Virus record (IMG/VR): IMGVR_UViG_2799112420_000002
Coordinates: 1,598-65,597 of that record
Origin: a virus
Lineage: Duplodnaviria; Caudoviricetes
Reading direction: 5' to 3' (one strand)
Length of the DNA: 64,000 nucleotides
Shown here: one piece after another, positions 4,478 to 11,384 of the stretch
Numbering within the stretch: the stretch's first letter is position 1
Layout: each line of letters begins with the position of its first letter
Made by a program: the position numbers and the translations under genes
The notes under the pieces: model-generated
Told to the model about the DNA's origin: nothing
Seen by the model: the letters and a program-made list of their open reading frames with translations, nothing else
Database searches by the model: none

Positions 4478-4643
4478 CGTTGGACGCTACTGGGACTGCC
4501 CGGCACACATCAAGATCCGCGGGAACCACAGGACATTCCGTCAGTGGTTGCTCCGGAAGTTCTTCCGGCCGGTGGAATATCCGGATCTTCTGATGATCAG
4601 TGATTATCATCCTGCCTACTATCCGTCCGGATATAAAAAGTGA
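4470..4643 (+). CDS. Hypothetical protein
   Basis: AAGGAGG RBS precedes ATG at 4470. Confidence 0.5.
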   Translation: MTNVGRYWDCPAHIKIRGNHRTFRQWLLRKFFRPVEYPDLLMISDYHPAYYPSGYKK

Positions 4644-4749
4644 CCTCCGGAGCGGGCACTCCGGAGATCGAGGTCAATCGAGGGTATCAATTGGACCAAG
4701 GTTATTATAACCGGTTTCCCGGTTAAAAACAAGAAGGAGGGTATCAAAA

Positions 4750-5646
4750 TTGGAAAACGAGCTGATTATTGTCAAGCAGCTGCCGGTGATCGAGGATCAG
4801 CTGGCCGCAGTCAAGGCGAGCATTACTGAGCGGGTCAATCAGGCGCTCTCCCTGGTCTGCACGGAAGAAACCTACAAGGATGTGAAGAAGGTCCGCTCCG
4901 ATCTGAATAAGGAATACGCGGAGCTGGAGACCAGGAGGAAGGAAGTCAAGGCCGCGGTCATGGCTCCCTATGAGAAATTCGAGGCAGTTTACAAGGACTG
5001 TGCCGGAGATCTGTACAAGGACGCTGATCTGAAGCTGAAGCAGAAGATCGCTGAAGTGGAAAACGGCCTGCGGAAGCAGAAGGAAGAAAAGCTCCTGGAT
5101 TGGTTCAACGAGTATCGCGAGAGCAACGGAATCGAAGCTGACTTTGTGGCCTTCGATGACACCGGGATCAAGGTTGGCCTGACGGACAGCCTCACCAGTC
5201 TGAAGAAGCGGGCCAAAGATTTCCTGGACCACATCGTGGATGACCTGAAGGCGATCGCTACTCATGAGGACCGCGACGAGATCATGACGGAGTACAGGCG
5301 TGGATACAATCTGGGTGTTTCCATGTCGACTGTCGCAGCCCGCCACAAGGCGATTGAGGACGCCAGGAAAGCCAGGGAGGAAGCGGAAGCCCGCCGGAAG
5401 GCCCAGGAGGAACAGCAGAAGTCCCTCGAGGCCGTGATTGCTGCTCAGGTTGCGCAGGAGGCCCCGGTTGCTGCTCCTGTGACCGTGGAGGTCGTAGAGT
5501 CCGTCCCGGAAGTGAGCCCTGTTCCTGAGGCTCCTGTGACCGAAAAAACGTATTCCACTTCATTCAGAGTTACCGGAACGCTGGAAAAGCTGAAGGCGCT
5601 GAAAGCGTTCCTGGTGGAAGGAGGCTATGAATATGAGCAGCTCTAA
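4750..5646 (+). CDS. DUF1351-like coiled-coil phage protein
   Basis: Helical 298 aa ending in LKAFLVEGGYEY; upstream of recT. Confidence 0.75.
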   Translation: MENELIIVKQLPVIEDQLAAVKASITERVNQALSLVCTEETYKDVKKVRSDLNKEYAELETRRKEVKAAVMAPYEKFEAVYKDCAGDLYKDADLKLKQKIAEVENGLRKQKEEKLLDWFNEYRESNGIEADFVAFDDTGIKVGLTDSLTSLKKRAKDFLDHIVDDLKAIATHEDRDEIMTEYRRGYNLGVSMSTVAARHKAIEDARKAREEAEARRKAQEEQQKSLEAVIAAQVAQEAPVAAPVTVEVVESVPEVSPVPEAPVTEKTYSTSFRVTGTLEKLKALKAFLVEGGYEYEQL

Positions 5647-6601
5647 CATTGTCGCCCAGAAGCAGCGCTTCTCTGTCGCGATCACGACGGACAGCTACAA
5701 AAAGCTGATCAACAACACGCTGCAGGACCCTGCCCGCGCTCAGCGGTTCGTTGCTTCCATCACTTCCGCAGTGGCCGTGAATCCGGCCCTGCAGGAGTGC
5801 ACCCCGCCGACCATTATCGCTGGTGCGCTCCTGGGAGAGAGCCTGAACCTCTCTCCCTCTCCGCAGCTGGGTCAGTACTATCTGGTGCCCTTTAAGACGA
5901 AAGTAAAGGGACCCGACGGGAAGCAGCTGTATCAGACCGACGCGGCCGGGAACAAGGTCCTGGACGCGAATGGAAAATGGATTCCGATCACCGAGTCCCG
6001 CGCTCAGTTTGTCCTCGGATATAAAGGTTATATCCAGCTGGCGATCCGGAGCGGGCAGTATTCCGATATAGATGTAATGGAAATCCGGGAGGGAGAGTAC
6101 CTCGGAAAGGATCCGCAGACCGGAAAGCCCCGCTTCCTGTTCATTGAGGACGATGAGCTCAGAGATAAGCTTCCGGTTGTTGGATATATGGCGTATTTCG
6201 AGTATCTCAACGGATTCCGGAAAGTTATGTACTGGTCCAAGGAAAAGATGATGGCCCATGCGGACAACTTTTCTGCGGCATTCAGCGCGGAGGCTTACAA
6301 ACGGATCCAGGCCGGTGAAGTCTCTGACCAGGACATGTGGAAGTATTCCAGCTTCTGGTACAAGAACTTCGATGACATGGCAAAGAAGACGCTGCTGCGG
6401 CAGCTGATCTCCCGCTGGGGAATCATGTCCATCGAGATGCAGCGCGGATATGTTGGAGACTCCAACTTCATCCAGGTTGAAAACGGCGAATTCGTGAATG
6501 TACCGGAGGAGCGTGTGGAGGGGCTGCAGCCTCAGCCCCGGGAGGAAGCGCCCGCTGCTCCGACAGCACAGGCCGAGAGCGTTAACCTTGCGGATCTGTG
6601 A
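5627..6601 (+). CDS. recT: RecT-family single-strand annealing protein
   Basis: LSPSPQLGQYYLVPF, AQFVLGYKGYIQLAIRSGQY and MAKKTLLRQL motifs. Confidence 0.9.
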   Translation: MNMSSSNIVAQKQRFSVAITTDSYKKLINNTLQDPARAQRFVASITSAVAVNPALQECTPPTIIAGALLGESLNLSPSPQLGQYYLVPFKTKVKGPDGKQLYQTDAAGNKVLDANGKWIPITESRAQFVLGYKGYIQLAIRSGQYSDIDVMEIREGEYLGKDPQTGKPRFLFIEDDELRDKLPVVGYMAYFEYLNGFRKVMYWSKEKMMAHADNFSAAFSAEAYKRIQAGEVSDQDMWKYSSFWYKNFDDMAKKTLLRQLISRWGIMSIEMQRGYVGDSNFIQVENGEFVNVPEERVEGLQPQPREEAPAAPTAQAESVNLADL

Positions 6602-7281
6602 TTGATTATCAAATCCTCTCCACGGGATCCTCCGGGAACGCCGTAATCGTCAACAAGGCTGTGCTGATCGATTGCGGCGTCCCGTACAGGGCCGTGGAGC
6701 CCTTCATTAAGGACCTGAAGCTAATCCTGCTGACGCACATCCATGGAGACCACTTCAAGGCATCCACGATCCGGAAGATTGCCGCAGAACGACCGCTGAT
6801 CCGGTTTGGTGCCCCTGAGTGGCTGATCATGCCGCTCAGGGATGCCGGGGTCAGTCTGAAGCAGGTGCTTCTTCTGAAGCCAGGATTCCGGTACAGCATG
6901 GGGATCTGTGACGTGATCCCAGTCCCGCTGGTCCATGACGTTCCGAATCAGGGATACAAGATCCATTTCCCAGGCGGGAAGATGATTTACGCAACGGATA
7001 CGGTCAACATGAATGGGATCACGGCTGAGAACTTTGACCTGTACATGGTCGAGGCCAACTACGGAGACGAGGAAATCCAGCAGCGGATCAATGATAAAAA
7101 GGCCAGCGGAGAGTACATCTACGAGAAGCGCGTACTGAAGACCCATTTATCCCGGGAGAAATGTAACGACTGGATCTACCGAAACGCAGGTCCGCAGAGT
7201 GAGATCATTTACCTGCACGGTCACAGGGAGGACGAGACGGATGCAGCAAGCGATGATAGGGGAGCTGAAGGGGCTGTCTAA
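6598..7281 (+). CDS. MBL-fold metallo-hydrolase (phage exonuclease partner of RecT)
   Basis: STGSSGNA, THIHGDH, HDV, TDT, EANY and THLS motifs. Confidence 0.88.
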   Translation: MIDYQILSTGSSGNAVIVNKAVLIDCGVPYRAVEPFIKDLKLILLTHIHGDHFKASTIRKIAAERPLIRFGAPEWLIMPLRDAGVSLKQVLLLKPGFRYSMGICDVIPVPLVHDVPNQGYKIHFPGGKMIYATDTVNMNGITAENFDLYMVEANYGDEEIQQRINDKKASGEYIYEKRVLKTHLSREKCNDWIYRNAGPQSEIIYLHGHREDETDAASDDRGAEGAV

Positions 7282-7822
7282 AGACTTCGACGGCCGCCAG
7301 ATCATCTCTGTTGCTGTCCAGGCTGACTTCCGGGAAGAGTACGACGATCTCAAGGATGGGAAAGTGACCGTCGTTATCAAGAAATACCGAAAAGGCCGAA
7401 GCCTCGATGCGAACGCAATGGCGTGGAGTCTCATAAACCAGATCGCAGCCAAACTGCAGGAAAAGGAGCCGAGGCACGGATGGACTCCGGAGGAAGTGTA
7501 TCGGACGGCAATAAGGGACGTCGCAGGAGCTTGTACAGTGCACTGCGTTCCGGATGATCAGATCCAGCAGTTTATAGAGGACTGGCAAAGCCTGGGAATA
7601 GGATTCCAGGTCGAAACATTTCCCAGCCGGATTGATGGCTGCACGAACGCAAAATTCTGGAAGGGATCCCACCTGTACGACACGCAGCAAATGTCTACAC
7701 TAATCAACATTCTTATCCAGGAGGCCGAGCAGCAGGGTATACATACGATCACAGACAAGGAGATCCAGAAAAAGCTCGAAGGGTGGCAGAAGGCGTATGA
7801 CAAGAAGCATTCTCCAGGATGA
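7241..7822 (+). CDS. NinB/Orf-like recombination protein
   Basis: RSLDANAMAW and YDTQQMSTLI..LIQEAEQQGI patterns. Confidence 0.6.
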   Translation: MQQAMIGELKGLSKDFDGRQIISVAVQADFREEYDDLKDGKVTVVIKKYRKGRSLDANAMAWSLINQIAAKLQEKEPRHGWTPEEVYRTAIRDVAGACTVHCVPDDQIQQFIEDWQSLGIGFQVETFPSRIDGCTNAKFWKGSHLYDTQQMSTLINILIQEAEQQGIHTITDKEIQKKLEGWQKAYDKKHSPG

Positions 7823-8075
7823 AAAAGTCTGCTACCTGTGTCCCAGGTCCTTTGGGCTTGAAAAGCATCACATTCTATCAGGGGTGGCCAACAGAAGGCT
7901 GTCTGAAAAGTACGGTCTCTGGGTCTACCTCTGCCAGGAACATCACACAGGAAAGAAGGGAGCGCAGTATGAGAAAGATCTGAACCGGTTGCTGAAGCAG
8001 CAAGCACAGATAGCGTTTGAAGCCATTCACGGTCACGATCTGTGGATGAAGGTTTTTCGAAAAAACTATTTATGA
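7797..8075 (+). CDS. Small HNH-like Zn-binding phage protein
   Basis: CYLC...HHI...VYLC.EHH. Confidence 0.6.
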   Translation: MTRSILQDEKVCYLCPRSFGLEKHHILSGVANRRLSEKYGLWVYLCQEHHTGKKGAQYEKDLNRLLKQQAQIAFEAIHGHDLWMKVFRKNYL

Positions 8076-8090
8076 AGAGAGGGTATCAAA

Positions 8091-8741
8091 ATGGAAAAGA
8101 AGATTCTGAAGGTCCGCGTCACGATGTTCGAAGAGATCCTTGGAACCGCAAGCGCAAATCCGGAAATCCACGAGGAGTTTATCGCCAGTAAAGCGCCGGA
8201 CGCTCCCAGCCGGGAGGAAGAGGTCGCCGCGATCGGCGCGGAGGAAGTGTTCGAGAAGGGCATGACGGTGTTCCCGCGGGGCGCGGATGGAAAGCCCATC
8301 GCCTGGGATTATCAATGGAAAGGTTTCTTCAAGGACGCCTGTGCGGCTCTGCGGAAGGTGCCGAAGAGCGAGTGCGGAAAGATCAAAGCCTATAAAAAAG
8401 AGATCGATGGCTTAATTTTTCCGGAACCCAGGATGATTCCGATCAAGTTTGACGGCGAAATTGGCATCTGCCAGCGTCCTCTGCGCGGCCAGACGGCCCA
8501 GGGCGAGCGGATCGCGCTGGCGAGCTCTGAGAGCATTCCCGCGGGCGCTACGATGGAGTTCACAATCAAGCTGCTTCTCCCGGATCACGAGAAGGCCGTT
8601 CTTGAAATGCTGGACTATGGTCAGCTGCGTGGATTTGGTCAGTGGAGAAACAGCGGGAAAGGCCGTTTCTGGTTTGAGGCATGGGATGAAAACGGAAAGC
8701 TGATCTCCAGCAATCTTCCCGCTGATGAAGCCGCTTCGTAA
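8091..8741 (+). CDS. Stand-alone Cas7/RAMP-like protein
   Basis: N-terminal beta strand KVRVTMFEEILGT, RAMP-type helix P.AWDYQWKGFFKDAC, and C-terminal glycine loop GQLRGFGQWRNSGKGRF. No other cas gene in the window. Confidence 0.75.
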   Translation: MEKKILKVRVTMFEEILGTASANPEIHEEFIASKAPDAPSREEEVAAIGAEEVFEKGMTVFPRGADGKPIAWDYQWKGFFKDACAALRKVPKSECGKIKAYKKEIDGLIFPEPRMIPIKFDGEIGICQRPLRGQTAQGERIALASSESIPAGATMEFTIKLLLPDHEKAVLEMLDYGQLRGFGQWRNSGKGRFWFEAWDENGKLISSNLPADEAAS

Positions 8742-8763
8742 CGGACAAGCTCGGCTTCCTTTT

Positions 8764-9330
8764 GAAGGGCATGGGAGCGGCACGGACGAGTTCCGAGCTG
8801 CGGTGGCAGAGTACAGAGCAGTCAGCCCAGCGCAGATAGGCCGGGAAGGGAGCTGCTGAGGCACGGAAGCGAAGCAAACGGAGATGCGGCGGCACAGCGC
8901 CGGATCGAAGGGCCGGGATTCGCACAGCAGCGGAATGGAAAAGATCAGGAATGGACAGCACCGGCATGGAAGCGCAGGGCAGGGATCAGCAATGGATGAG
9001 CGGGGCCTATCATCGCAAAGCACCGGAAGAGTGAGGAGAGGCATAGTACCGGATGAAAAGGAAGAGGAGAGAACCGCATAGAGCTGCACGGGGCGACGAG
9101 AAGCTGGGTATTGAAAAGAAAAGGAGATGCGATGAGCGGACCAGCGTGGGAATAGCTCAGTTGGGATACGCTGGGAATCGAAAAGATCAGTTGCGGAAAA
9201 GCGTGGAAGGGCATCGTGCGGCATAGGAGTGCTGTGAACAGAAATGGAAAGGAGAGGCGGCTCAAAGACATGAGACGAAACGGATCTGCATGGTGCAGAA
9301 AGGATGCGCTGGGTAAAGCGTAGGTTAATG
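8764..9330 (+). repeat. Non-coding pentamer-periodic array, (G-N-W-N-N)n, putative guide-RNA array
   Basis: G every 5 nt in long runs, e.g. 8825-8865 (9 consecutive), 8892-8937 (10), 9150-9195 (10), 9196-9256 (13), 9283-9323 (9). Phase slips are mostly +1 at GG doublets. Confidence 0.85.
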
Positions 9331-9355
9331 GAAATAATACTGTAGGAGTAGGCCA

Positions 9356-10072
9356 ATGAAAGAGTGGTTCAAAGCTCAGAAGAGTTGGGGTGCAGCGATT
9401 CAGAGCCTTTCCGATGTCGAAGTGGGACGTCTGATGAAAGCAGTGTGGCATTACGCTACTACTGGTGAGCAGAGGGATCTTTCTGGAGGAGAAAAGGTGA
9501 TCTTCGCTTTAATCACAATGGAGCTGAGCCAAAATGAGGCTAAGGATGCTTTGATATCAAAGAAGCGATCGGAGGCTGGTTCACTCGGAGGAAAACAACG
9601 GGTAGCAAATGCAAGCAAATGCTATCAAATTCAAGCAAATGCTACTTTTGCTAAGCAAAATGTAGCAAAAGAATCAAATGCTTCTAATAAAGAAGTAGTA
9701 GTAGAAGTAGTAGAAGACGATAGTAGTTTATTTATCAACAGTGAAGAAGCAGGGATTATACGTAGTGAACATGAGAGAGTACTTGATGCTGCAGAAATAG
9801 CTGGGTTTGATAGAACAGACTACGTAAGGAGTAAGCTGATCGACCTGTATGCAGACAATGGCCTGGAAAAGATGCTGAGCGCTATAGAAGCATGCGCGGA
9901 GCACGGAGCTCCGACCGTCGCGTATCTCAAGGGCGTCCTCAAAGGAGGCCCCAGGAAGCAGAGCCAGAACAAGGCTGTTCCTGCGCAGCAGTACGCGCAG
10001 CGAGACTACTCCGGAGCTGACGAAGAGGCCATGAAGCGGATGCTGGAAATGGCTGAGGAAAACCGCGCATGA
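9356..10072 (+). CDS. Replication initiator (DUF6291-like N-terminus, DnaD-like C-terminus)
   Basis: SLSDVEVGRLMKAVWHYA N-domain; C-domain ...AYLKGVLK; internal iterons. Confidence 0.8.
   Translation: MKEWFKAQKSWGAAIQSLSDVEVGRLMKAVWHYATTGEQRDLSGGEKVIFALITMELSQNEAKDALISKKRSEAGSLGGKQRVANASKCYQIQANATFAKQNVAKESNASNKEVVVEVVEDDSSLFINSEEAGIIRSEHERVLDAAEIAGFDRTDYVRSKLIDLYADNGLEKMLSAIEACAEHGAPTVAYLKGVLKGGPRKQSQNKAVPAQQYAQRDYSGADEEAMKRMLEMAEENRA
9601..9685. repeat. Iterons inside the initiator gene (likely phage ori)
   Basis: AGCAAATGC-like units at 10-bp spacing, plus an inverted TTTTGCT, in AT-rich context. Confidence 0.7.
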
Positions 10073-10440
10073 CGGCCGTGGAAACGCAGTGCGGAACCTG
10101 CGAATACTCGAAGAAGAATGCAGGGAACATGGTCTACTGCATTCTCTTCGGGATTATCATTCACGCCAGGCACACAGGGTGTAAGTATCACAGCGGAGGA
10201 CATGATGAGCAAGTACGGGAACAGGAAAACGACGATGTTCGGATTTACATTCGACAGCAAGCACGAAGCGGAGCGGTATCTGGAGCTTCGGGCCATGGAG
10301 CGGGAGGGAAAAATCATGCACCTGGCCACGCAGGTCCCGTTCGAGCTGATTCCGATGCAGCTGGACAAAAACGGGAAGATTCTGGAGAGACCTACCCGTT
10401 ACATCGCGGACTTCACGTACTGGGTCCGAGACGGAAATGA
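10069..10440 (+). CDS. Cys-rich hypothetical protein; the 3' part overlaps the next gene
   Basis: CGTC..C..C N-terminus, coupled to the initiator stop (ATGA). The long overlap is doubtful. Confidence 0.4.
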   Translation: MTAVETQCGTCEYSKKNAGNMVYCILFGIIIHARHTGCKYHSGGHDEQVREQENDDVRIYIRQQARSGAVSGASGHGAGGKNHAPGHAGPVRADSDAAGQKREDSGETYPLHRGLHVLGPRRK

Positions 10441-10555
10441 CGCCAGCGGTTTCCGGTATGTTGTCGAAGACGCCAAGGGATGTAAAACCGAGGTTTACCG
10501 GCTGAAGAAAAAACTGATGCTGCTGATGCACGGCATCCAGGTGCAGGAGGTTTGA
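10202..10555 (+). CDS. DUF1064-like PD-(D/E)XK nuclease
   Basis: SKYGNRK..FDSKHEAERY...YIADFTY...VVEDAKG. Confidence 0.85.
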   Translation: MMSKYGNRKTTMFGFTFDSKHEAERYLELRAMEREGKIMHLATQVPFELIPMQLDKNGKILERPTRYIADFTYWVRDGNDASGFRYVVEDAKGCKTEVYRLKKKLMLLMHGIQVQEV

Positions 10556-10556
10556 A

Positions 10557-10952
10557 ATGGCAAAGTCGCTGAGGGAAATGAGACGGATGCAAGCGAGGAA
10601 AGACGCGCATCTTGTCCGCATGATGGAAGCCAGCCCGGTTGAAAGGCAGAAGGCGGCGCTCTTCCGGAACGGGATCACGTTCAAGGACGTGGAGACCGAG
10701 AAGAAAGCGGCGTTTTCGGAAGGGCGAAAGCTCGCGGAGGAGTTTTCATTCCACACGATCTATGCAGCCGTTCTGATCACCATGGTAGAGCATCATGGAT
10801 GGGATCCGGACGCGGCTGCGGATCTCCTGCGGGAGATTGATAAACAGGTGGTTCTCTGCGTCGAGGATCAGGATCTGGCCAACGAGGCCTTTGAAAAAAC
10901 GGGGATCCATCTCCAGTGGGATGATCCGATCGAAAGAATACAGGAGGGATGA
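10557..10952 (+). CDS. Hypothetical protein
   Basis: Operon-coupled ORF, 131 aa. Confidence 0.6.
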   Translation: MAKSLREMRRMQARKDAHLVRMMEASPVERQKAALFRNGITFKDVETEKKAAFSEGRKLAEEFSFHTIYAAVLITMVEHHGWDPDAAADLLREIDKQVVLCVEDQDLANEAFEKTGIHLQWDDPIERIQEG

Positions 10953-10955
10953 CTT

Positions 10956-11384
10956 ATCAATAAGCTCACTATCATCGGAAACCTCACCCGCGATCCGGAA
11001 TTGCGGACCACAAGCGCAGGGATCAATGTGTGCTCTTTCTCGGTTGCCGTAAACCGCAGGAAGACGCAGCAGAACCAGGACCCGGGAGCCGACTACTTCA
11101 ACGTGTCTGCATGGCGGCAGCTGGGCGAAAACTGTGCGAAGTGGCTGATCAAGGGGAGAAAAGTGTGTGTTGTTGGTCCCGTAACTGTCCGGATGTACAC
11201 ACGCAATGACGGCACACCCGGCGCGAGTATGGAAGTCACAGCGGAAGATGTCGAGTTTCTGTCATCTGCGCAGGACCGGGAGCAGGATTATCATTCTGAG
11301 CCCGCTGCACCCGCAGCGCAGGAACCGAAGAAAGATTCATCCGGAATGACACCGGTGGACACACCGGATGATCTGCCGTTCTAA
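10956..11384 (+). CDS. ssb: Single-stranded DNA-binding protein (apparent ATC start)
   Basis: (I)NKLTIIGNLTRDPELRTT...DYFNVSAW...C-terminal DDLPF. RBS GGAGGG lies 7 nt before ATC at 10956. Confidence 0.9.
   Translation: MNKLTIIGNLTRDPELRTTSAGINVCSFSVAVNRRKTQQNQDPGADYFNVSAWRQLGENCAKWLIKGRKVCVVGPVTVRMYTRNDGTPGASMEVTAEDVEFLSSAQDREQDYHSEPAAPAAQEPKKDSSGMTPVDTPDDLPF

What the first reader, a model, noticed from the sequence alone, without database searches (positions are those of the whole stretch)
8805..9283. Higher-order punctuation of the array: +1 phase slips define 5n+1 blocks (possible individual guides)
Seen: the G register advances by one base at GG doublets, at 8805/6, ~8865/6, 8891/2, 8932/3, 8963/4, 8994/5, 9025/6, 9123/4, 9149/50, 9195/6, 9256/7 and 9282/3. 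This gives blocks of 31, 31, 31 (8933-9026), then 26, 46, 61 and 26 nt; many slip sites read (Y/A)GGA. Two other slips differ (about -1 at 8821-8825 and +2 at 9091-9093). Inference: the extra base marks boundaries where a filament ends or the RNA is processed, giving roughly 12-15 guide units of about 6 pentamers, close to Cas7 backbone length in CRISPR complexes.
Basis: partly seen in the sequence, partly recalled or inferred. Interest (0 to 1): 0.7.

Follow-up and report, generated by a model that had tools for sequence, protein, structure and literature searches.

The report
Staggered VIPR guide-RNA array in prophage
The one-base "phase slips" are real and split a five-base repeat array beside a small Cas7-like phage gene into units of about six repeats, which matches the "staggered vrRNA arrays" of the phage VIPR RNA-guided systems described in 2026 preprints, so this is a new member of a known kind.

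Summary
Window 8744-9323 (+) carries G every 5 nt.

It is not chance. In about 100 related phage loci, 1097 of 1129 slips are +1 and unit size peaks at 5-7 pentamers.

The gene just upstream (8091-8741) folds as a minimal Cas7/Csm3-like RAMP. Its family profile aligns with the experimentally studied Vipr protein of Escherichia phage SUSP1. The locus is therefore a VIPR system (bioRxiv 10.64898/2026.04.26.720920). That preprint's Fig. S18 already describes "staggered vrRNA arrays" offset by 1 nt, without experimental confirmation.

New here:
- Units have conserved first and last pentamers.
- Unit size matches the reported six-protomer helical turn.
- Units shuffle as cassettes between related phages.

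I found no target for any unit, and I could not test RNA ends.

This scan met the same system before on other DNA (e1-3992934, e1-3286773). Those notes led me to the papers, which I then checked myself.

Verdict: new member of a known kind, moderate interest.

The parts
8091..8741 (+). vipr gene: 216-aa minimal Cas7/Csm3-like RAMP (P0001)
   Evidence: No Pfam or PHROG hit. AF2 with MSA gives pLDDT 92. Foldseek top hit is type VII Cas7, E 7.5e-9. VIA Z is 12.9 to Csm3. HHalign to SUSP1 Vipr gives 73.5%, E 3e-5.
8744..9323 (+). Staggered pentamer (vrRNA-type) array: about 113 units, consensus G-(A/C)-N-N-N
   Evidence: It starts 3 nt after the vipr stop. No promoter or terminator motif lies between the gene and the array. 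No Rfam hit. RNA fold z is -1.4.
8744..8774 (+). block 1, 6 pentamers + closing G (boundary with block 2 ambiguous: 8774/5 or 8784/5)
8775..8865 (+). block 2, 18 pentamers.
   Evidence: This stretch is conserved in L015.
8866..8891 (+). block 3, 5 pentamers + G
8892..8937 (+). block 4, 9 pentamers + G
8938..8968 (+). block 5, 6 pentamers + G
8969..8994 (+). block 6, 5 pentamers + G
8995..9025 (+). block 7, 6 pentamers + G
9026..9092 (+). block 8, 13 pentamers, closed by GGG (the single +2 slip, 9091-9093)
9093..9123 (+). block 9, 6 pentamers + G
9124..9149 (+). block 10, 5 pentamers + G
9150..9195 (+). block 11, 9 pentamers + G
9196..9256 (+). block 12, 12 pentamers + G
9257..9282 (+). block 13, 5 pentamers + G
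9283..9323 (+). block 14, 8 pentamers + G; periodicity decays before the RBS of the next gene (start 9356)
7797..8075 (+). 92-aa ORF directly upstream of vipr; possible accessory (vap) gene, unproven
   Evidence: Conserved next to vipr only in close relatives (L016, L011, L002). No significant Pfam hit.

Best explanation
The stretch is the guide-RNA array of a prophage VIPR system (Viral Interference Programmable Repeat).

Shown here:
- The gene at 8091-8741 encodes a minimal Cas7-like RAMP of the Vipr kind.
- A same-strand array with G every 5 nt directly follows it.

Taken from the 2026 preprints on a distant relative (type II, phage SUSP1):
- One Vipr protomer binds each pentamer.
- The protomer clamps the conserved G(s) and the following base.
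- It presents variable bases for gapped pairing with double-stranded DNA, silencing rival mobile elements.

Inferred for this array:
- The +1 slips at GG doublets divide the array into abutting units of form G(NNNNG)n, usually n = 5-7.
- The closing G of one unit sits next to the first G of the following unit, in the position that holds the first G of the GGY motif in canonical (type II) repeats. This would be the published '1-nt overlap'.
- Across a junction the protomer spacing becomes 6 nt instead of 5. This breaks the filament register, so each unit carries its own short filament of about one helical turn.
- Whether the RNA is also cut there is unknown.
For: Protein:
- The AF2 model has pLDDT 92.
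- The top 40 structural matches are all CRISPR RAMPs. The best are Csm3 at Z 12.9 and type VII Cas7 at Z 12.4 and Foldseek E 7.5e-9.
- The family profile hits type VII Cas7 and Csm4 through the G-rich loop.
- The profile aligns over 169 columns with SUSP1 Vipr ALH47069 (prob 73.5%, E 3e-5). The G-loop Trp-Arg that clamps G2 and the next base in the cryo-EM paper is conserved.
- Both residues reported to read G1 differ here (H17 aligns with T19; D177 aligns with Q184). This matches the relaxed base at that repeat position.

Array linkage:
- Every related locus I examined (14 + 80 from IMG/VR plus the further loci parsed) has a same-strand array beside the gene.

Punctuation:
- 351/362 and 746/767 slips are +1.
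- Unit size has mode 6 and CV 0.40, against 0.92 for a geometric spacing.
- First and last pentamers of a unit are constrained (GCA.., GCAAA). Inner ones are near maximum entropy.
- The same units recur in different orders in 44 distinct arrays of one phage lineage.
- Homology breakpoints concentrate within -6..+4 nt of junctions, 51% against 28.5% expected.
- A 31-nt indel separates arrays that follow identical vipr genes.

Other:
- Tandem two-domain Vipr fusions exist (P0139, P0171). This fits head-to-tail oligomerisation.

Literature:
- Staggered arrays and relaxed YNNNG/NNNNG repeats are described.
- The binary filament has six-subunit periodicity.
Against: There are no RNA data for this locus or for any staggered array, so unit ends are inferred from DNA alone.

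Units are short. With two fixed end pentamers, only 3-5 repeats are free. Under the published NN code that is 6-10 specified bases, too few for a unique target.

No unit, sliding 7-repeat window or pair of adjacent units matched the host genome or about 100 related phage regions better than shuffled controls. The one apparent excess came from runs of the same dinucleotide (apparently low-complexity sequence) piling up on a few genome sites.

Base composition at variable positions does not differ between units more than within them.

GG also occurs inside units in about 10% of pentamers. A GG alone therefore cannot be the boundary signal.

The sequence link to SUSP1 Vipr is weak. HMMER found nothing in the SUSP1 genome, and only HHalign did. 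No conserved vap gene was identified.
Confidence: 0.7

Rival explanations
1. It is a VIPR array, but the slips are not unit boundaries. One long Vipr filament coats the whole transcript. An extra base about once per helical turn only relieves accumulated strain or keeps the RNA in step with the protein helix. The array then acts as one body, not as 14 guides.
For: Mean spacing of one extra base per roughly 6 protomers equals the six-subunit turn of the binary filament. No terminator, promoter or linker lies between units. No per-unit targets were found, and there is no compositional individuality of units.
Against: A purely geometric need would not give conserved first and last pentamers. It would not give cassette-like reuse of whole units in different orders. 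Unit sizes also range from 4 to 8 and up to 13-18. The preprint's figure legend speaks of individual processed vrRNAs.
Confidence: 0.17
2. It is a DNA-level element, such as a phage replication origin or a protein-wrapping or bending tract. G would recur every half helical turn (mean period about 5.15 bp, about 10.3 bp per two units), next to the DUF6291 replication-type gene.
For: The position lies between the recombination and replication modules. The mean period is close to half a B-DNA turn.
Against: The array follows the vipr gene, not the replication genes. In L006 the neighbours are an integrase-like gene and an unrelated 722-aa ORF. Elsewhere the neighbours also vary. There is strict strand asymmetry with G on the vipr coding strand in all loci. 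The partner protein is an RNA-binding RAMP.
Confidence: 0.04
3. It is a type III toxin-antitoxin-like or sponge arrangement. The RAMP would be an RNase or another harmful protein held in check by its own repeat RNA, with no targeting role.
For: A repeat RNA is encoded next to an RNA-binding protein in a prophage. No targets were found.
Against: Repeat units are degenerate rather than identical folded units, and RNA structure is no stronger than in shuffles. A homologous system was shown experimentally to be an RNA-guided DNA binder. The array lies downstream of the gene, not upstream with a terminator as in ToxIN (own knowledge).
Confidence: 0.04

Closest known systems
VIPR systems with staggered vrRNA arrays and relaxed repeats (bioRxiv 10.64898/2026.04.26.720920, Fig. 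S17-S18 and methods)
   Same: A phage-borne minimal RAMP sits next to a pentanucleotide repeat array. Repeats are of the YNNNG/NNNNG kind. Successive vrRNAs are offset by 1 nt, so the end of one marks the start of the next.
   Different: The preprint gives one representative diagram and no RNA data for this architecture. I could not assign this locus to one of its seven types. The window's second repeat position is A/C rather than pyrimidine. Unit statistics, end pentamers and cassette shuffling are not in the text I could read.
Type II VIPR of Escherichia phage SUSP1 (Vipr ALH47069 + vap1 + four vrRNAs)
   Same: A homologous protein by profile alignment, with a conserved G-loop Trp-Arg. It has 5-nt repeats with conserved G, one protomer per repeat and a six-protomer turn.
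   Different: SUSP1 vrRNAs are separate roughly 100-nt transcripts of 9-16 GGYNN repeats, each capped by a structured 3' tail or pseudoknot. Here there are no tails, only one conserved G, units of mostly 5-7 repeats that directly abut, and no recognisable vap.
Class 1 CRISPR Cas7 backbones (type III Csm3/Cmr4, type VII Cas7)
   Same: The same fold (RRM core, thumb hairpin, G-rich loop). The protein polymerises along a guide RNA and flips bases at a fixed period.
   Different: The period is 5 nt with a base-specific G, not 6 nt without sequence preference. There is no CRISPR repeat-spacer array. No Cas5, large subunit or Cas6 lies beside it. It is phage-encoded.
Type III toxin-antitoxin RNA arrays (ToxI/ToxN)
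   Same: A tandem RNA array lies next to the gene of the protein that binds it. Units are thought to be released at fixed junctions.
   Different: ToxI repeats are identical 36-nt folded units upstream of the toxin. Here units are degenerate, unstructured and of variable length.

Membership tests
VIPR system | Vipr protein: small single-RRM RAMP with G-rich loop, thumb hairpin and helical-bundle insertion, lacking a second RRM | tested here: met
   AF2 model pLDDT 92, with helices 24-48, hairpin 125-149 and a C-terminal G-loop. Best structural matches are Csm3, type VII Cas7 and Cmr4. The G-loop matches type VII Cas7 and Csm4 by profile.
VIPR system | Homology to an experimentally characterised Vipr | tested here: met
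   HHalign of family profile A1 against SUSP1 ALH47069: probability 73.5%, E 3e-5, 169 aligned columns, with G-loop GDWR against GQWR. The link is weak, because an HMMER search of the SUSP1 genome found nothing.
VIPR system | Tandem pentanucleotide repeats with conserved G motif and variable positions next to vipr | tested here: met
   93% G at register sites over about 113 units. Arrays are present beside the gene in every related locus examined.
VIPR system | Encoded in a phage or prophage, without CRISPR array or other cas genes at the locus | tested here: met
   Neighbours are RecT, an MBL-fold protein, NinB/Orf and a DUF6291 replication-type protein. Relatives lie on IMG/VR viral contigs. 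No other repeat array was found at 7000-11000. I did not search the whole window for cas genes.
VIPR system | Accessory vap gene beside vipr | tested here: inconclusive
   The upstream 92-aa ORF is conserved only in close relatives and has no domain hit. Some relatives have a roughly 200-aa ORF between vipr and the array.
VIPR system | vrRNAs expressed and bound by Vipr | not testable with these tools
VIPR system | Variable dinucleotides match natural targets under the 1-nt skip rule | tested here: inconclusive
   No matches above shuffled controls in the host genome or about 100 related phage regions. Exact IMG/VR scans of three long units gave 0, 0 and 6 hits. The 6 hits reduce to 3 distinct sequences in AT-rich phages, at about the rough chance level I estimated. 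Rival-phage databases were barely sampled.
VIPR staggered array | Successive vrRNAs offset by 1 nt with no spacer or tail between them | tested here: met
   12 of 13 slips in the window are +1 at GG. Across relatives 1097 of 1129 are +1.
CRISPR-Cas class 1 | CRISPR repeat-spacer array and multi-subunit effector (Cas5, large subunit) with 6-nt guide periodicity | tested here: not met
   The period is 5 nt, not 6. No repeat-spacer array was found. Neighbouring genes are phage recombination and replication genes.

The most novel reading that the evidence does not exclude
In this very large gut-phage clade, the stagger-delimited units are one-helical-turn mini-filaments with fixed first and last repeats and only 3-5 free repeats. 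Under the published two-bases-per-repeat code, that is too little information to name a unique site. These arrays would then work by a different logic from the studied type II systems. Possibilities are reading three bases per YNNNG repeat, many weak guides acting additively on a rival genome, or unit shuffling as a built-in way to diversify specificity.
Probability: 0.3. Interest if true: 0.7.

Novelty: new member of a known kind. Interest (0 to 1): 0.4.

Why it matters
VIPR systems were proposed in 2026 as phage-borne relatives, possibly ancestors, of CRISPR effectors that read DNA through a gapped code. The staggered architecture is the one array type mentioned there without experimental support.

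This protein family is very large: 1703 clusters at 50% identity and about 6500 at 90%, mostly from gut and rumen samples. This architecture could therefore be among the commoner forms of VIPR in nature.

Three results give concrete, testable predictions for how these arrays are assembled, processed and diversified:
- The 1-nt stagger is near-universal.
- It delimits units of about one filament turn with their own end signals.
- Units move as cassettes.

The results also flag a real puzzle: units look too short for specific targeting under the published code.

Tried and rejected
Known RNA families: an Rfam scan of 8000-10000 at E <= 1 found nothing.

Folded ncRNA: MFE z is -1.4 against shuffles, so no support.

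Own transcription unit: no sigma-70-like promoter or intrinsic terminator flanks the array on the + strand.

Minus-strand ORF 8412-9356 (314 aa): no family hit. I treat it as a by-product of the T-poor top strand.

Contiguous 5-nt-register targets in the host genome: the best was 21/23, against 20/24 for controls.

Gapped targets:
- I tried five choices of read positions and skips of 0-3. The only excess (positions 2-3, skip 1) traced to runs of the same dinucleotide piling up on a few genome sites, with a single full-length match.
- Full-unit matches with up to 1 mismatch were the same as controls.
- Targets continuing across junctions, with or without end pentamers and with gaps of 0-21, gave no signal.

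IMG/VR exact scans for three long units: 0, 0 and 6 hits. The 6 reduce to 3 distinct sequences in AT-rich phages, at about the rough chance level I estimated.

Unit-specific base composition: none at positions 2-4, z 2.8 at position 5.

Literature searches on pentanucleotide periodicity or solo Cas7 found nothing relevant. The VIPR papers were found only after a lead from earlier notes of this scan.

Other attempts:
- The single-sequence AF2 model was useless, pLDDT 39.
- An HMMER search of the SUSP1 genome with the family profile found nothing.

Full report
**The observation**

The sequence between the stop of ORF 8091-8741 and the start of ORF 9356-10072 is purine-rich (G 38%, A 31%, C 19%, T 13%). 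It has a strong 5-nt periodicity of G, with autocorrelation of 0.34, 0.23, 0.18 and 0.16 at lags 5, 10, 15 and 20. In 150-nt windows the lag-5 score is 0.3-0.5 from about 8700 to 9250. The whole-window mean is -0.02 and the sd is 0.09, and no other part of the 64 kb behaves this way. Tandem Repeats Finder does not report the array, because the pentamers are too diverse.

**Phase parse**

I used a Viterbi model with five phases, a background state and equal cost for every slip. It gives 14 blocks between 8744 and 9323 and 13 slips. Twelve slips are +1 and one is +2 (GGG at 9091-9093), and every slip sits at a GG.

- Block lengths are 31, 91, 26, 46, 31, 26, 31, 66, 31, 26, 46, 61, 26 and 41 nt, which is 5n+1 apart from the one that ends at the +2 slip.
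Neighbouring units there begin with GG, so the slip site is ambiguous.
G falls at 8806, 8811, 8816 and 8821, then at 8825. That is a +1 followed by a 4-nt unit.
- The register position is G in 93% of 113 pentamers. Position 2 is A or C in 78%. Positions 3-5 are variable.
- Nine of 13 junctions read GGA.

**The neighbouring gene**

ORF 8091-8741 (216 aa, P0001) has no Pfam or PHROG match. It belongs to a very large unannotated family, with about 6500 clusters at 90% identity and 1703 at 50% identity.

- With a 66-sequence alignment, AlphaFold2 gives a confident model (pLDDT 92, pTM 0.87).
- Foldseek and VIA-align both return only CRISPR RAMPs at the top: Csm3 (Z 12.9), type VII Cas7 (Z 12.4, Foldseek E 7.5e-9), Cmr4, type IV Csf2 and Cas7-11 domains.
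- The family profile also matches type VII Cas7 (E 6e-6) and Csm4 through the C-terminal glycine-rich loop.

**Linkage of gene and array**

- All 14 IMG/VR loci found with P0001 (43-89% identity) carry a same-strand G-period-5 array right after the gene.
- So do 80 further loci from a more distant branch, and every other related locus parsed, including three from other genomes of the same class.
- In most of the loci the array starts about a dozen nt after the tblastn match to the gene ends. A few loci have a roughly 200-aa ORF in between.
- Gene neighbours otherwise vary. They are recombination and replication genes here, and an integrase-like gene in L006.
- L006 and L007 have about 1.8 kb of array upstream and 1.1 kb downstream of the gene.

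**Is the punctuation more than chance?**

- Across these loci, 351 of 362 slips and 746 of 767 slips are +1. Only 9 are -1. The model has no built-in preference.
- Internal unit sizes peak at 5-7 pentamers, with mode 6 (31 nt). The coefficient of variation is 0.40, against 0.92 for randomly placed slips.
- Units have internal anatomy. The first pentamer tends to GCA.. and the last to GCAAA before the closing G (entropy 1.0-1.4 bits). Inner pentamers are near 1.9-2.0 bits at positions 3-5.

**Evolution of the arrays**

- Between phages whose vipr genes are about 80% identical in DNA, the arrays do not align at all.
- At shorter distance the gene-proximal part is shared and the rest is replaced. 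The window and L015 diverge abruptly near 8935. L016 and L017 differ by a 31-nt indel and a swapped segment.
- In one phage lineage, 55 loci carry 44 different arrays built from 173 unit types. The same units recur in different orders and combinations.
- Breakpoints of homology fall within -6..+4 nt of a junction in 51% of cases, against 28.5% for random positions. These counts are not independent, so I treat them as indicative only.

Units therefore behave as cassettes.

**What it is**

Notes from earlier runs of this scan on other genomes named "VIPR" systems. I checked this myself.

The preprint 10.64898/2026.04.26.720920 reports the following:
- Vipr proteins are minimal phage-borne RAMPs.
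- vrRNAs are made of YNNGG pentamer repeats, with relaxed NNNGG, YNNNG and NNNNG variants.
[quoted passage not shown] - Only the ribozyme-interspersed and single-vrRNA architectures were confirmed by sRNA-seq.

The companion cryo-EM preprint 10.64898/2026.04.26.720927 reports the following:
- One protomer binds per repeat.
- The filament is right-handed with six subunits per turn, or five when DNA is bound.
- G1 is read by H17 and D177.
- G2 is held by R138 and W178.
- The next base sits in a pocket with R179.
- The two variable bases pair with DNA while every third target base is skipped.

I located the SUSP1 locus in KT454805. It has two minus-strand genes flanked by GGTNN arrays with hairpin tails. 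I compared its 195-aa protein with my family profile. HHalign gives 73.5% probability and E 3e-5 over 169 columns. The G-loop reads GDWR in SUSP1 and GQWR here.

In that alignment both residues that read G1 are changed in this family (His to Thr, Asp to Gln). The Trp-Arg pair is kept. That agrees with an array in which only one G per repeat is conserved. This last point rests on a modest alignment and only two families.

**How the stagger most likely works (inference)**

Written in the published frame, a unit here is x-G-(Y/M)-N-N. At a junction the closing G of one unit lies immediately before the first G of the next. The next unit therefore starts with a full G-G-(C/A) motif, and the old register loses its in-phase G. 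This is one way to read the published "1-nt overlap".

Protomer spacing across the junction becomes 6 nt instead of 5. That should interrupt the protomer-protomer contacts. The array would then be coated by a string of separate short filaments of about one helical turn each. The conserved first and last pentamers would be their end signals, taking the place of the 3' tail of type II vrRNAs. Tandem two-domain Vipr proteins (P0139, P0171) fit head-to-tail assembly.

Nothing here shows whether the RNA is cut at junctions, or by what. No promoter, terminator or stable fold separates units or sets the array apart from the vipr mRNA. The array is therefore probably made as the 3' part of that transcript.

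**What does not fit yet**

If the first and last pentamers are structural, a typical unit has 3-5 free repeats. Under the published code that is 6-10 read bases, too few to pick a unique site in a 3-Mb host plus phages.

I looked for targets in the host genome (3.2 Mb, 63 contigs), the window and about 100 related phage regions. I tried several codes, with shuffled controls, for whole units, sliding windows and adjacent-unit pairs. Nothing exceeded chance. Exact scans of IMG/VR for three long units gave at most chance-level hits.

This does not argue against targeting of rival phages that are not in my small database. It does leave the guide role of each unit unproven, and it leaves open a different reading rule for this clade.

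**Rivals**

- A single continuous filament with a strain-relief base once per turn explains the mean spacing. It does not explain the conserved unit ends or the cassette behaviour.
- A DNA-level origin or bending element is unlikely. The array tracks the vipr gene and its strand, not the replication genes.
- A toxin-antitoxin-like RNA sponge is not excluded by sequence alone. It has no specific support.

**Limits**

- I could not read the preprint's figures or data tables, so I cannot say which VIPR type this clade belongs to.
- No conserved accessory (vap) gene was identified.

**Verdict**

Comparative evidence supports it, but RNA data do not yet exist.

The locus is a new member of a known, very recently described kind. 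The quantitative picture is an increment on what the preprints state. That picture consists of near-universal +1 slips, one-turn units with end pentamers, cassette shuffling and the puzzle of short guides.

Noticed in passing
L004:3099-3508 (IMG/VR contig 3300021399_000937), upstream of its vipr homologue: A second array of the canonical GGYNN kind, with very long units (29, 31 and 16 pentamers) separated by -2 offsets. It lies on the same strand as, and in addition to, the relaxed +1-staggered array downstream of the gene. So two repeat grammars flank one vipr gene. A 154-aa ORF lies between them.
   Followed up: partly
L006:2206-3998 and 4633-5726; L007 likewise: Exceptionally long arrays, about 1.8 kb upstream and 1.1 kb downstream of the vipr gene, with about 90 units in all. 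A third array lies at the start of the locus. The context is an integrase-like gene rather than a recombination or replication module.
   Followed up: partly
Proteins P0139 (432 aa) and P0171 (458 aa) from the representative search: Natural tandem fusions of two Vipr-like domains in one polypeptide, reminiscent of fused Cas7 repeats in Cas7-11.
   Followed up: no
Protein P0253 (317 aa); P0151 (291 aa): P0253 has a PLD-like nuclease domain (PF13091, NgoFVII-like) fused in front of a partial Vipr domain. P0151 has a Big_2 domain fused behind a Vipr domain. These are single examples, so assembly chimeras are not excluded.
   Followed up: no
L028, L073, L092: about 626-1257 nt after the vipr start: In a few relatives a roughly 200-aa ORF sits between vipr and the array. 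It is a candidate accessory (vap) gene that is absent from the window.
   Followed up: no
window 6598-7281: A metallo-beta-lactamase-fold protein lies two genes upstream of vipr, between RecT and a NinB/Orf-like gene. Type VII CRISPR effectors pair Cas7 with an MBL/beta-CASP nuclease (own knowledge). However, this ORF had no BLAST match in the other loci sampled, though an MBL-fold gene is called upstream of vipr in close relative L017. It is probably part of the recombination module.
   Followed up: partly
window 9604-9727, inside ORF 9356-10072 (DUF6291): Short tandem repeats of periods 10/20 and 12 nt lie within the replication-type gene (AGCAAATGCA x3.9; AGAAGTAGTAGT x3). They could be iteron-like origin repeats inside the initiator gene.
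   Followed up: no
window 8935 / L015:2220: The array of a 97%-identical vipr relative (L015) matches the window's array for the first ~190 nt. It then diverges abruptly, about 60 nt before that assembly contig ends. Array assemblies may often break here.
   Followed up: partly
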